DNA from: a virus
Lineage: Duplodnaviria; Caudoviricetes
Virus record (IMG/VR): IMGVR_UViG_3300035698_013504
Coordinates: 136,904-200,903 of that record
Strand: one strand, 5' to 3'
DNA: 64,000 nucleotides
The notes beneath the pieces were generated by a model. That model had not been told where the DNA came from and did not search any database. It saw only the letters and a list, made by a program, of their open reading frames with translations. The position numbers and the translations under genes were made by a program. Below are positions 40,848 to 46,089 of the stretch, piece after piece (position 1 is the stretch's first letter; each line of letters begins with the position of its first letter).

Positions 40848-40876
40848 TTGACAATCAGCAACCACCATGCTAAGAT
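40848..40876 (+). promoter_or_regulatory. Sigma70-type promoter of the RNA island
   Basis: TTGACA-N17-TAAGAT with extended TG. Confidence 0.75.
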
Positions 40877-41056: not shown

Positions 41057-41428
41057 GGGGGTGAAAGGTATCGACAGGACGACTGAAGTATAGACGGCGT
41101 GCCGGAGTTGACCGAATGGCTCCGTTATCAAATCGGTTACACTTAAATTAAGTGACGAAGTTCCCATGCTCGCCGCTGCATAGCGGCCTCGGCCCAAGCG
41201 AGATTGCCTTGGTAGCTTGACGCTGAGACCATACAAAGGTTGACTGCTGGCAAGACAGCGGACATCTCCGGAAAGACGGGGTGCGGGATGGTCATACCCG
41301 CATACAACTCTGACCAAGGCTGCCTGGATGAGCCTGGTGACGTTTGGCCGAATCGCCTGGCTACGCACGTAGATGTTTATATCGAGGACGTAACTGGACC
41401 GGATTTTCAATGATCCGCACCTCCACCA
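41057..41428 (+). ncRNA. ssrA: tmRNA
   Basis: 5' GGGGGTGAAAGGTATCGAC; 3' CACCTCCACCA; 7-bp acceptor stem with G3-U; tag ORF 41154-41183 DEVPMLAAA*; 372 nt. Confidence 0.93.
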
Positions 41429-42919: not shown

Positions 42920-43345
42920 ATGGGCTCTACACCAAGCAATAAAGACGGCGGATGTTCTCTCTTACATGACCTTTGGAGAAGGTCTGTAGGTATGGAACCC
43001 AGACCGTCTACGGTGTTGATGCCCGATCTTGCATCTCTGAGGCAGACCGAGTGGTCTGATACGTTCGAGCAGTACATGCGCAACAGACTCGTCTTCGGGG
43101 CCGTCAGGTACGGCCTGGTTGGCGACAAGGGCAAACCCCGGTACGACCGGATCAAGTCGATACGCCAGAGACTTGACGCGTACGAAGAAACGGGGAATGA
43201 TGAACATCTGGTAGACGTCGCGAATATGGCCCAGCTCGAGTTTATCGAGGGGATTCATCCCAACAAGCATTTCGCGTCTATCGATGACGGTGTTCACACA
43301 CCAGTTTGCTCAGGTACTCTTCAGGCACGGGTTACTTCCCTTTAG
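42920..43345 (+). CDS. Conserved phage protein, possible nucleotide pyrophosphohydrolase-like
   Basis: MRNRLVFGAVRYG...EHLVDVAN; the last codons overlap the 5' end of an RNA module. Confidence 0.6.
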   Translation: MGSTPSNKDGGCSLLHDLWRRSVGMEPRPSTVLMPDLASLRQTEWSDTFEQYMRNRLVFGAVRYGLVGDKGKPRYDRIKSIRQRLDAYEETGNDEHLVDVANMAQLEFIEGIHPNKHFASIDDGVHTPVCSGTLQARVTSL

Positions 43346-43438
43346 GAGGGCGAGGTCATGGGTTCGAATCCCATTACCCGACTAATACTCGGGTATAGCT
43401 CAGAGGCAGAGCGCGCTTGTAAACCTGTACCGCTTTTT
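43319..43438 (+). ncRNA. YrlA-like RNA with circularly permuted tRNA domain (module copy 3)
   Basis: GGGCG/CGCTT anticodon stem, AGGTC variable loop, T arm ATGGG-TTCGAAT-CCCAT, perfect 7-bp acceptor TACCCGA/TCGGGTA closed by a loop, D arm GCTC...GAGC. Confidence 0.88.
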
Positions 43439-43480
43439 GGTGCCGAGCATTTTCTTTTGAAGCGGCGGCGGACGTCAGTC

Positions 43481-43579
43481 CAGCGTATGGTGTAACGGTT
43501 AACATTCTGTCGAAACAGTTACTCTCTGACGAGATTGGCTAAAGTAGGCGGGCTACGGGTTCGAATCCCGTTGCGTAGC
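43481..43579 (+). ncRNA. tRNA-like RNA lacking a canonical anticodon arm
   Basis: Acceptor CAGCGTA/TGCGTAG, D arm GTGT-AACGGTTA-ACAT, T arm ACGGG-TTCGAAT-CCCGT; 49 nt with short hairpins between D and T arms. Confidence 0.7.
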
Positions 43580-43609
43580 TGCTTCACATTTGATGGGACG
43601 ATGGTATAC

Positions 43610-43652
43610 CTTCAGCGGTGGGTTACTTCAATTGCTGAAAAAACCCCACTGC
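43610..43652 (+). ncRNA. CUUCAG-N8-UACUUC stem module, copy 4 (short)
   Basis: cttcag cggtgggt tacttc aattgctg aaaaaa ccccactgc. Confidence 0.6.
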
Positions 43653-43710
43653 ATCTATTGGACCTAGTCCCTCCTTATTGTTCTGCCCTGGAGGTTATAC
43701 CACCTCCCTC

Positions 43711-44052
43711 TGTCCTTTAGCGGGGATGGACGTCTAACGTCGCTGGCCAAGCGGCTGTAGACGCTAATCAAATAGGTCTCGCCACCCGGGCGAGTAGGGA
43801 TGTAGCTACCGAAAGCGCGCACCTTGATCTTTGGATATAGGGTGCAATCGATTAGTAGGTGTACGCCATCTTTCTATCATAGGTTCTTAACATGCTGCGG
43901 TACCACAGCTATGCCTGGATCACCGGTACGGACTTCGGTCCGGGGCAGTTCATCTTATTACGTTTGCCGCTGGGGTTCCCTCGTTAAAGTGGCCCGCTGC
44001 GGCGCCGCCCCCTCGGCGCCGTTTCGAAGGGCCTCAGCGGCTCTACAGGACA
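43711..44052 (+). ncRNA. Unknown ~340-nt multidomain structured RNA
   Basis: Closing stem TGTCCTTTAG/CTACAGGACA; nested GATGG/CCATC, CTAATC/GATTAG, CGTCTA/TAGACG, GCACCTT/AGGGTGC, CGGAC-TTCG-GTCCG, CCGCTGGGG/CCTCAGCGG. Confidence 0.65.
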
Positions 44053-44073
44053 TGAATGATGAGGTGTACTAGA

Positions 44074-44125
44074 CTTCAGGTAGGGGCTACTTCTATCCTA
44101 CAAGAAAAATACCCCAACTGACTTT
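44074..44125 (+). ncRNA. CUUCAG-N8-UACUUC stem module, copy 5, in the TROVE leader
   Basis: cttcag gtaggggc tacttc ...aaaaat accccaactg acttttg; ends ~75 nt before the TROVE start. Confidence 0.6.
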
Positions 44126-44195
44126 TGTCAGTCACCTCTCCCATTGTTGGCAGCCCTCTACGGAGCTGCTCTTGAAAGAACAGGGGGAACACACG

Positions 44196-46022
44196 ATGGC
44201 ACGATCGTTCCGCCGTATCTTGCGCGACGGCGCGCGAAAGAACGCGTTACCTTCCAACCGCCCCGATGCCACGGTTAACCGAGCTGGCGGCGTCTCCTTC
44301 GAGATCGCCGACCCGGCTACCAAGCTCATCACCATGACTGGTGGGGCGTTCTTTGGTGAGCCGAGGTTCTATTCAGGTTCCGACTGTGTACCCGTCCGGT
44401 CGTTCGGCGGGGCGTTCGCACCCTTGCAGGCACGTCTGGAGATCGCCAGGGACAAGTCTGTATCGTTCGCACGCTGCGAGGAGCTCGATGACACGGCACA
44501 GGAGATCATCGCAACGATCTTGGCTGTGCTCGATGGCGACACCCCAGAAGATGCGTTGGTTATCGCGGCGTGGCTGCGTAACGACGCAAACATCAGGCTC
44601 ACCCCCCAGGTGATCCTCACGCTTGCCGCCAATCACGAGAATGGCAAACCCTTCGTGCGCAAGTATGCGCCGAAGATCATGCTACGTCCGGATGAGGCGA
44701 AGACGAACCTCCTGTTGCACCGGTTCTTCTTTGGCTCGCGTAACCTGCCGAATAGCCTCAACAAAGCCATCGGTGACGGAGTCGCTCGCTTTGGCGAGTG
44801 GGGACTCATCAAGTATGATACGCCCTCCTTCCCCCGCTGGAAGGATGTGCTTCGTTGGATCAAGCGCCGCAACGGGTGGCCCCTCTCAAGAGGGCTGGCC
44901 CGCTACTTCACCCATGGTGAGGTGGATCGTGACGCTACTCCGATCGCCTATGCTCGCAGCCTCTTGGCTCAGAAGACTACCTTCGACACCGAGACTCGCG
45001 AGTTGATCACGGCCAGCCGTGCGACCTGGGAAGTCGTGATGTCTCAGTTCGGCCCACAGGACAAGACACGGGCCTGGGAGTACCTGGTTTTCGAGAACCT
45101 GTTGGGCTATATGGCCACGATGCGCAACCTGCGTAACATGGCTCAGGCCAACGTCAGCTCCCTGTGCGTCGACGCCGTTTGCAGAAAGCTTGTCAACCCC
45201 GAGGAAGTGGCAACAAGTAGGCAACTGCCTTATCGCTTCCTTGCCGCAAACAATGCCCTCTGGGGTAGCCCCGATCGGTTTGGTGGCAACAGCCGCGATA
45301 ACCGCATGGTGTCCCAGTGGCGCGTTAACCCGGTTGTTGGCGGGGGAGGCCTCTCCGGCTTCCGCGGGCTGAGTAAGTTCACAGATGCTCTCGATGAAGC
45401 CGCGGACATGTCCGTGAAGAACGTGCCTGTGTTGCCGGGCCAGACGGCCGTCCTTGTGGACGAGTCCAGCTCTATGCGTCAGCCGATCTCGGAGAAGTCG
45501 CAGATGCTAGTCTGTGACGCGTCGAATATGCTGGCGGGTATTATCGGGCGTGTCTCGGCCGATACGATCCTGTTGCCGTTCGGTGGTACCGTCGAGCATG
45601 TCCCCTGTCGTCATAGGGATACGGTGATCAGCATCGCAGAGAGGTGCGCGGCGGCCAATGTCGGCCACTCGACGAATACGTACCTCGGTATCCAGTACCT
45701 GATCGACAACGACATCGCGCCCGACCGGATTGTCATTCTGTCGGATGCACAAGCGTGGAACAGCTACAGCCGATCGTCGGGCTCGTTGCCTGACACGGTA
45801 CAGCAATACCGCCGCGGTTCGGCGATTGCAAAGGACACATGGATTCACAGTGTTCACGTCAACGGTTACGGCGACGACCCTATCCCCCCCGGTCCCCGTG
45901 TTAACCTCGTTTCTGGGTGGACGGACAAGATCGTGGACTCCATGCTTCACTGCGAAGGTGGCGTTGAGGGAGAAGAAGCGCTGGCGACCATCGACTACAT
46001 CAGAGCCAGGTGGTGTAATTAG
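44196..46022 (+). CDS. Ro60/TROVE-domain RNA-binding protein with vWA domain
   Basis: NRAGGVSF, FFGEPRFY, RNDANIRLTP, KYD, TWE, YMATMRNLRNM, LPYRF, vWA VDESSSM and LSDAQ. Confidence 0.92.
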   Translation: MARSFRRILRDGARKNALPSNRPDATVNRAGGVSFEIADPATKLITMTGGAFFGEPRFYSGSDCVPVRSFGGAFAPLQARLEIARDKSVSFARCEELDDTAQEIIATILAVLDGDTPEDALVIAAWLRNDANIRLTPQVILTLAANHENGKPFVRKYAPKIMLRPDEAKTNLLLHRFFFGSRNLPNSLNKAIGDGVARFGEWGLIKYDTPSFPRWKDVLRWIKRRNGWPLSRGLARYFTHGEVDRDATPIAYARSLLAQKTTFDTETRELITASRATWEVVMSQFGPQDKTRAWEYLVFENLLGYMATMRNLRNMAQANVSSLCVDAVCRKLVNPEEVATSRQLPYRFLAANNALWGSPDRFGGNSRDNRMVSQWRVNPVVGGGGLSGFRGLSKFTDALDEAADMSVKNVPVLPGQTAVLVDESSSMRQPISEKSQMLVCDASNMLAGIIGRVSADTILLPFGGTVEHVPCRHRDTVISIAERCAAANVGHSTNTYLGIQYLIDNDIAPDRIVILSDAQAWNSYSRSSGSLPDTVQQYRRGSAIAKDTWIHSVHVNGYGDDPIPPGPRVNLVSGWTDKIVDSMLHCEGGVEGEEALATIDYIRARWCN

Positions 46023-46052
46023 ATGTAGCACCACCACAAACAAATACGCAAG

Positions 46053-46089
46053 GAGCTGGTCACACGTTGTGACCAGCTCTTGTTCTTTA
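46053..46089 (+). terminator. Intrinsic terminator after TROVE
   Basis: 12-bp GAGCTGGTCACA/TGTGACCAGCTC stem followed by TTGTTCTTT. Confidence 0.8.

What the first reader, a model, noticed from the sequence alone, without database searches (positions are those of the whole stretch)
43711..44052. Unidentified ~340-nt highly structured RNA directly upstream of Ro60
Seen: a closing stem joins 43711-43720 to 44043-44052 and encloses at least nine helices in several multiloop domains, including a cUUCGg-capped hairpin. The ORFs here lack an RBS. It lacks RNase P (GAGGAAAGUCC), group I P7 and tmRNA signatures. Inference: a large ornate phage ncRNA, possibly a new class or a Ro60 client.
Basis: partly seen in the sequence, partly recalled or inferred. 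Interest (0 to 1): 0.78.

Follow-up and report, generated by a model that had tools for sequence, protein, structure and literature searches.

The report
Unassigned spacer between phage Y RNAs
A 387-base non-coding stretch lies between two well-supported Y RNAs upstream of a jumbo phage's Ro60 gene; it folds into a few stable hairpins, but nothing shows that it is one large, evolved, ornate RNA.

Summary
The stretch is real non-coding DNA. All six frames fail a codon-usage test, and it lies in the longest non-coding gap of a complete 200.9-kb salt-lake phage.

It is not directly upstream of Ro60. It is the spacer (43673-44059) between two Y RNAs, Y2 (43596-43672) and Y3 (44060-44139). That Y family's stems covary across 16 sequences.

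Rfam gives no hit. No homolog was found in the phage genome, in 80 viral Ro60 loci and four other Ro60 loci, or in single 20-mer scans of IMG/VR and JGI contigs. Covariation therefore cannot be tested.

Support from folding is weak:
- z is -2.4 against shuffles, but the genome background averages -0.8 (sd 1.1).
- Ensemble diversity equals that of shuffles.
- The closing stem disappears when the flanks are included.
- Only the 85-nt 3' domain stands out (z -3.6).

It is not a Y RNA, because a Y covariance model and Y half-models find nothing in it.

Best reading: a transcribed spacer, or a lineage-specific accessory RNA, of the operon that encodes the Y RNAs and Ro60. The claim of a new ornate class is unproven. 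Other first-stage notes of this scan flagged the same stretch.

The parts
43673..44059 (+). The whole unassigned spacer between Y2 and Y3. The finding (43711-44052) lies inside it.
   Evidence: Its bounds are set by the Y covariance-model hits. It is non-coding. It has no paralog in the genome, no nhmmer hit in the 82 other Ro60 loci then held and no Rfam hit.
43596..43672 (+). Y2, a small Y RNA of the CUUCAG-N8-UACUUC type (5' flank of the spacer)
   Evidence: Model R2 scores it 56.5 bits, but it is a training member. The motif occurs 3 times against 0.06 expected. Stems covary in 11 of 13 pairs across 16 sequences.
43690..43707 (+). Hairpin GGAGGU-UAUACC-ACCUCC, 17 nt after Y2
   Evidence: (z -2.44).
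43732..43762 (+). Two-tier hairpin (GUCUA/UAGAC and GUCGCU/AGCGGC, loop GGCCA)
   Evidence: Pair probability 0.94 and 0.98. It is kept in the larger-context fold. It is more stable on the + strand, -17.9 against -13.5 kcal/mol.
43778..43794 (+). Hairpin CUCGCC-ACCCG-GGCGAG
   Evidence: Pair probability 0.92. It is kept in both folds.
43819..43845 (+). Hairpin GCACCUUGAUC-UUUG-GAUAUAGGGUGC with two G.U pairs
   Evidence: Energy is -13.5 kcal/mol on the + strand against -8.1 on the - strand.
43929..43942 (+). Possible C(UUCG)G tetraloop hairpin, which competes with an alternative long hairpin
   Evidence: It can be read from the sequence. It is not in the MFE.
43962..44046 (+). 3' domain: an 11-bp basal stem (GCCGCUGGGGU/GCCUCAGCGGC) enclosing a small hairpin and a 9-bp G+C hairpin (43999-44022). 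This is the only part clearly beyond chance.
   Evidence: z is -3.64, and 1 of 200 shuffles folds as well. Pair probability is 0.93 and 0.98. It is kept in the context fold. Model R1 finds no analog in 73 other Ro60 loci. No U-tract follows, and the terminator scan does not call it.
44060..44139 (+). Y3, a small Y RNA (3' flank). This, not the finding, is what lies directly upstream of Ro60.
   Evidence: Model R2 scores it 64.7 bits, but it is a training member. Its motif is at 44074.
44196..46022 (+). Ro60 (TROVE + vWA) gene
   Evidence: Pfam TROVE at 2.5e-20. The nearest full-length homologs are 49% identical. A terminator lies at 46051-46081.
43885..43885 (+). The only population variant seen in the spacer (U>C)
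   Evidence: It is seen in one low-depth contig of run X2. It would turn G43799.U43885 into G-C in an MFE helix of probability 0.5. This is anecdotal.

Best explanation
The stretch is the 387-nt transcribed spacer between two Y RNAs in a long operon: promoter-like site at 40848, tmRNA, tRNA mimics, five Y RNAs, Ro60, and a terminator at 46051-46081.

It is neither a protein gene nor a Y RNA, and it belongs to no catalogued RNA family. It is most likely not one globally folded 340-nt RNA. It looks like a string of local hairpins.

The best-supported elements sit at its two ends. A hairpin lies just after Y2, and an 85-nt G+C-rich domain lies just before Y3.

Inferred mechanism: when the precursor is cut into Y RNAs, these end structures keep Y2 and Y3 folding independently. 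They would also act as barriers to exonucleases at the Y2 3' side and at the 5' side of the Y3-Ro60 message. The middle part has no demonstrable constraint.

Shown here: the stretch is non-coding, it is flanked by Y RNAs, it has local stable hairpins, and no homolog was found. Inferred: co-transcription, processing and the cis role.
For: - Non-coding in six frames.
- The gap 43346-44171 is the longest non-coding gap in the 200.9-kb genome.
- Y2 and Y3 abut the spacer, and the Y family's stems covary.
- The only good promoter-like site (10 of 12) is upstream at 40848, and the only strong terminator follows Ro60. None is called inside the spacer.
- The 3' domain has z -3.64. The 5' hairpins have pair probability above 0.9 and persist in a different folding context.
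- The global fold is not better defined than shuffles, and its closing stem depends on context.
- The closest Ro60 loci manage without it. The bacterial loci L002 and L003 fill the gap upstream of Ro60 with three tandem small Y RNAs. Related phage loci have tmRNA, Y RNAs and a tRNA.
- The + strand folds better than the - strand, -152.0 against -139.4 kcal/mol, with 18 G.U pairs.
Against: - A compact phage rarely keeps 387 nt without a function. RNA genes in phage clusters are usually closely spaced (general knowledge).
- A cis barrier or insulator role would need far less than 387 nt.
- MFE z -2.4 and the hairpin count in the top 8% of windows are mildly above background.
- The real tmRNA in this window scores only z -0.6, so these folding statistics cannot exclude a real RNA.
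- Neither transcription nor processing has been observed.
Confidence: 0.45

Rival explanations
1. It is a free-standing, lineage-specific structured ncRNA, or two to three smaller ones. It would be cut from the same precursor and act in trans with the Ro60/Y RNP, for example as a scaffold, decoy or dedicated Ro60 substrate.
For: - It lies in the longest non-coding gap of a 94%-coding genome, inside an RNA island.
- MFE -136.8 kcal/mol, z -2.4, and the 3' domain at z -3.6.
- The + strand is favoured.
- Related phage Ro60 loci carry large multi-hairpin RNA modules of 190-325 nt in their Y arrays, so RNAs of this size next to Ro60 are not unusual in this group.
- Chen et al. 2014 (PMC4201824) report Ro60-bound RNAs that escaped bioinformatic detection.
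Against: - No homolog was found in any search, so there is no covariation.
- Ensemble diversity equals that of shuffles.
- The z-score is within the genome background.
- The closing stem is not robust.
- No loop motif recurs, unlike the inserts of the large Y RNAs in L006 and L009.
Confidence: 0.3
2. It is a sixth, giant Y RNA. Its terminal stem would be a diverged Ro60-binding stem (CUUUAG...GACGUC at 43715-43734 and UCUACAG at the 3' end) that encloses a roughly 300-nt insert, like the large Y RNA at L012:2779-3103.
For: - A 3-mismatch match to CTTCAG-N8-TACTTC lies at 43715-43734, just inside the closing stem.
- By eye, 14 of 21 bases match the Y2 5' strand.
- Large-insert Y RNAs exist in related loci.
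Against: - Three-mismatch matches are common: 58 seen against 44 expected in the window.
- HMMs of the Y 5' half and 3' half find all five Y RNAs but nothing in the spacer, even at E<=1000.
- Model R2 with filters off finds nothing there.
- Local alignment of the spacer to Y2 gives z -0.6.
- The 12 motif bases are invariant in every Y RNA aligned or listed upstream of Ro60, apart from G/A at the sixth position. Three of the twelve are changed here.
Confidence: 0.05
3. It is decayed, non-functional sequence, such as the remnant of a lost gene or of duplicated RNA modules, carried along in the operon.
For: - No relative has it.
- The middle sub-domains fold no better than chance, at z -1.1 and -1.3.
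- Composition is similar to the rest of the genome.
Against: - No residual similarity to any protein family or to the other island RNAs.
- The 3' domain at z -3.6.
- Genome compactness.
Confidence: 0.17

Closest known systems
Bacterial and phage Y RNAs (YrlA/YrlB, Rfam RF02553; Chen et al. 2014, PMC4201824; Thermus phage phiLo Yrl1/Yrl2, PMC12135203)
   Same: Encoded on the same strand immediately upstream of a Ro60 gene, in a cluster of RNAs that are probably processed from one precursor.
   Different: - It lacks the Y stem and motif. That holds for the CUUCAG-N8-UACUUC type of this group and for the Rfam YrlA model.
- It has no tRNA-like module.
- At 342-387 nt it is three to five times longer than the small Y RNAs beside it.
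Large-insert Y RNAs found here in related phage Ro60 loci (L012:2779-3103, L014:3017-3305, L013, L009, L006, L004, L020)
   Same: Size of 190-325 nt, many hairpins, the same place in an array of tmRNA, Y RNAs and Ro60, and inserts that differ between lineages.
   Different: Those are enclosed by a canonical Y stem with the exact motif. The window's stretch is not. There is no sequence or structural similarity.
Transcribed spacers of stable-RNA operons, and the extra stable RNAs of unknown function in the phage T4 tRNA cluster (from general knowledge, not checked here)
   Same: Non-coding sequence between stable RNA genes in one transcription unit, with hairpins close to the mature RNA ends.
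   Different: Spacers in phage tRNA clusters are usually tens of bases long, not 387. No processing sites are known here.
Large ornate bacterial and phage ncRNAs (GOLLD, ROOL, raiA, OLE, HEARO)
   Same: Phage context near tRNA-like genes, and size of several hundred nt.
   Different: No match to any of them at E<=10. Those classes are defined by strong covariation, which is unavailable here.

Membership tests
   The best match in the spacer has 3 mismatches, at 43715. The 5'-half HMM gives no hit there even at E<=1000, while all five real copies score 15-20 bits.
   Model R2 with filters off gives no hit in 43673-44059. The 3'-half HMM gives no hit. The model cannot span a 300-nt insert, so the two half-models are the test for a giant Y RNA.
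YrlA (Rfam RF02553) | tRNA-like T and D arms with a closed acceptor stem, plus the GNCGAAN0-1G strand | tested here: not met
   cmscan at E<=10 over 43400-44300 gives no YrlA hit. The only partial hit is the neighbour at 43350-43417. The two CGAA tetramers in the stretch are about what chance gives.
RNase P RNA, tmRNA, group I/II introns, tRNA, known ribozymes | A match to the Rfam covariance model | tested here: not met
   The only tmRNA is at 41057-41428.
GOLLD, ROOL, raiA, OLE and other large ncRNA classes in Rfam 15 | A match to the Rfam covariance model | tested here: not met
   One search gives only a chance-level manA hit outside the stretch (E 3.6).
Intrinsic terminator or attenuator | A G+C-rich hairpin followed by a U-tract | tested here: not met
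   Hairpin 43999-44022 is followed by GUUUCGAAGG, with only 3 U. The scan does not call it.
Evolved structured RNA (any class) | Compensatory base changes across homologs | not testable with these tools
   No homolog was found. The population data hold one SNP.
Protein-coding gene | An open frame with the genome's codon usage, or a family match | tested here: not met

The most novel reading that the evidence does not exclude
A jumbo phage encodes a lineage-specific ncRNA of about 350-390 nt that is not a Y RNA, inside its Y-RNA/Ro60 operon. The RNA would be a dedicated partner of the phage Ro60 RNP: a scaffold that brings in a nuclease such as the neighbouring MYG1-like enzyme, or a decoy substrate. 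This would be a new class of Ro60-associated RNA.
Probability: 0.15. Interest if true: 0.7.

Novelty: new member of a known kind. Interest (0 to 1): 0.3.

Why it matters
If the stretch were a real, stable Ro60-associated RNA, it would enlarge the set of RNAs that Ro60 works with. It would also give a handle on what phage Ro60 systems do during infection.

As it stands, the surrounding island is the more secure and more interesting object. It holds a tmRNA, tRNA mimics, five Y RNAs with a covarying stem and an invariant CUUCAG...UACUUC motif, Ro60 and a MYG1-like gene. This stretch is its least-supported component.

Tried and rejected
- **Rfam.** Gathering and E<=10 scans gave nothing in the stretch.
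- **ARAGORN.** It found no tRNA or tmRNA in the window or the genome.
- **blastn against INPHARED phages.** No match.
- **Close relatives of the phage.** Searches through Ro60, the 204-aa ORF and the MYG1-like protein in IMG/VR found none. The nearest full-length Ro60 is 49% identical, and short fragments reach at most 57%.
- **nhmmer and blastn of the stretch.** Run against the 82 other Ro60 loci then held (80 of them IMG/VR viral loci), the whole phage genome, and later L084 and L085; only the stretch itself matched.
- **Single-sequence covariance model of the 3' domain.** Only the stretch itself matched.
- **20-mer scans.** JGI metagenome contigs gave one unrelated chance hit, L086. IMG/VR gave none.
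- **Contigs of four salt-lake runs laid on the region.** Only near-identical pieces and one SNP in the spacer, so there is no usable variation.
- **RNA runs.** No RNA holder was listed.
- **Giant degenerate Y RNA.** Rejected by the half-model HMMs and by local alignment.
- **Remnant of the tRNA-Met that follows the small Y RNA in relatives.** A profile of the small-Y-plus-tRNA block finds nothing in the spacer.
- **Small ORFs.** No family match.
- **The genome search 'relatives'.** Not available for a virus record.

Full report
**Setting.** The window is the last 64 kb of a complete 200,903-bp IMG/VR virus record with direct terminal repeats. Public runs place it in salt-lake metagenomes.

Around the finding lies an RNA-rich operon on the + strand:
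- a good promoter-like site at 40848;
- a tmRNA at 41057-41428 (Rfam, 76.7 bits);
- two ORFs with normal codon usage;
- several tRNA-like elements;
- a Ro60 gene at 44196-46022 (TROVE, 2.5e-20);
- a strong terminator at 46051-46081, followed by a MYG1-like gene.

ARAGORN finds no tRNA in the whole genome.

**What flanks the finding.** The motif CTTCAG-N8-TACTTC occurs five times without mismatch, all on the + strand and all in this island: 40949, 42096, 43319, 43610 and 44074. A looser form occurs three times against 0.06 expected.

The same motif heads small RNAs upstream of Ro60 in the closest bacterial loci (L002, L003), in another metagenome locus (L085) and in a dozen viral loci. An alignment of 16 of these RNAs gives two stems in which 11 of 13 pairs show compensatory changes. 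This is a Y RNA family.

The copy at 43319 carries a tRNA-like module that matches part of Rfam YrlA (29 bits, E 3.7e-4, below the gathering score). A covariance model of the family places Y2 at 43596-43672 and Y3 at 44060-44139.

The finding is therefore the spacer between Y2 and Y3. The RNA directly upstream of Ro60 is Y3.

**Is it coding?** No. A codon log-odds model was trained on the phage's 81 long ORFs. It gives -0.23 or lower per codon in all six frames. Coding windows of the same length average +0.25, with a 5th percentile of +0.02. The small ORFs have no Pfam match and only a marginal PHROG match. The gap 43346-44171 is the longest non-coding gap in a genome that is about 94% covered by ORFs with coding signal.

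**Is it unusually structured?** Only mildly.
- Folded alone, 43711-44052 gives -136.8 kcal/mol with z -2.40; the reverse strand gives z -2.09.
- Thirty-one other 342-nt windows of this genome average z -0.79 (sd 1.06, minimum -2.79). The real tmRNA scores -0.59, so the statistic discriminates poorly here.
- Raw MFE is in the lowest 10% of windows, and ensemble diversity (82.1) equals that of shuffles (82.4 +/- 28).
- Perfect hairpins of 6 bp or more number five, against 2.24 +/- 1.54; 8% of windows have as many.
- The closing stem has high probability in isolation, but it is replaced by other pairings when 43585-44150 is folded.
- The elements that survive both folds are the local hairpins at 43732-43762, 43778-43794 and 43819-43845, and the 85-nt 3' domain.
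- Of four sub-domains and the hairpin after Y2 tested separately, only that 3' domain is clearly beyond chance (z -3.64). The others score -1.99, -1.11, -1.28 and -2.44.
- The + strand folds better than the - strand (-152.0 against -139.4 kcal/mol, 18 G.U pairs). This fits a + strand RNA but partly reflects composition.

**Homologs.** None was found. The searches were:
- Rfam at E<=10;
- INPHARED phages;
- the phage's own genome;
- 80 viral Ro60 loci plus the two bacterial ones;
- two further metagenome loci;
- a structural model of the 3' domain;
- 20-mer scans of IMG/VR and JGI contigs.

The phage has no close relative. The best full-length Ro60 is 49% identical, and no relative was found through two other island proteins. 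Contigs from four salt-lake runs are near-identical and show one SNP in the spacer. That SNP, U43885C, would strengthen a predicted G.U pair. Covariation therefore cannot be tested.

**Is it a Y RNA in disguise?** Its 5' end reads CUUUAG-N8-GACGUC, and related phages do have large Y RNAs. In those, a canonical Y stem encloses 140-260 nt of hairpins, as in L012:2779-3103, L014, L013, L009, L006, L004 and L020.

The resemblance does not hold up:
- Three-mismatch matches are at chance frequency.
- HMMs of the Y 5' and 3' halves find nothing in the spacer, although they recover the known Y RNAs (all five with the 5' half).
- Model R2 finds nothing there either.
- Local alignment to every other island RNA is at chance level.
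- It is not a remnant of the tRNA-Met that follows the small Y RNA in relatives.

**Reading.** The evidence fits a transcribed spacer of the operon that encodes the Y RNAs and Ro60. Its end-proximal hairpins may insulate Y2 and Y3 folding and block exonucleases; this is inferred. A rival reading, an accessory ncRNA specific to this lineage, cannot be excluded. In its favour are the genome's compactness and the habit of related phages of placing large modular RNAs beside Ro60.

Known biology supports only the general frame. Y RNAs are encoded next to Ro60 and processed from common precursors, and extra Ro60-bound RNAs have escaped bioinformatic detection before (Chen et al. 2014, PMC4201824). 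A phage Ro60 with two upstream Y-like RNAs has been characterised (PMC12135203).

**Verdict.** Interest is low to moderate.

Noticed in passing
window 40949, 42096, 43319, 43610, 44074; L002, L003, L004-L014, L020, L085: A Y RNA family has an invariant CUUCAG-N8-UACUUC 5' strand and a GAYUAUUG 3' loop, unlike the published GNCGAA motif. Its two stems covary in 11 of 13 pairs across 16 sequences. It accompanies a whole group of bacterial and phage Ro60 genes.
   Followed up: partly
L012:2779-3103, L014:3017-3305, L013:2888-3140, L009:2993-3222, L006:2418-2645, L004:3050-3250, L020:1586-1795: Related phage Ro60 loci each carry a large Y RNA (190-325 nt) in which the canonical Y stem encloses a multi-hairpin insert. 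In L006 and L009 the insert is a row of four to five hairpins with GGAAGAC or AAAGAC loops, which looks like a repeated protein-binding site.
   Followed up: partly
L004, L005, L006, L009, L012, L013, L014 (upstream of Ro60): A tmRNA gene (58-129 bits) and a tRNA with a CAU anticodon lie upstream of Ro60 in these viral loci, as the tmRNA does in the window. The layout of tmRNA, Y RNAs and Ro60 is a conserved phage module.
   Followed up: partly
L014:2175-2245 and L006:942-1018: An HDV-like ribozyme match (37.8 bits, below the gathering score of 44) starts exactly at the 3' end of the L014 tmRNA. A twister-P5 match (38.0 bits, just above gathering) lies upstream of the L006 tmRNA. These may be self-cleaving processing elements in the islands.
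   Followed up: no
window 43456-43594: Another unassigned 140-nt stretch lies between Y1 and Y2. It has a perfect T-arm (ACGGG-UUCGAAU-CCCGU at about 43555-43575) but no tRNA or YrlA call.
   Followed up: no
whole genome (G000): ARAGORN reports no tRNA and misses the tmRNA that Rfam scores at 76.7 bits. The 200.9-kb phage seems to carry tRNA mimics but no ordinary decoding tRNA.
   Followed up: partly
genome 13107-13770 and 13912-14496 (outside the window): These two further long non-coding gaps (664 and 585 nt) are the next largest after the Ro60-upstream gap.
   Followed up: no
L084:5001-6775: A Ro60 relative on a 30.7-kb JGI contig is called as two overlapping pieces, which suggests a frameshift or an assembly error. 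It is followed by an HD-domain gene rather than a MYG1-like gene.
   Followed up: no
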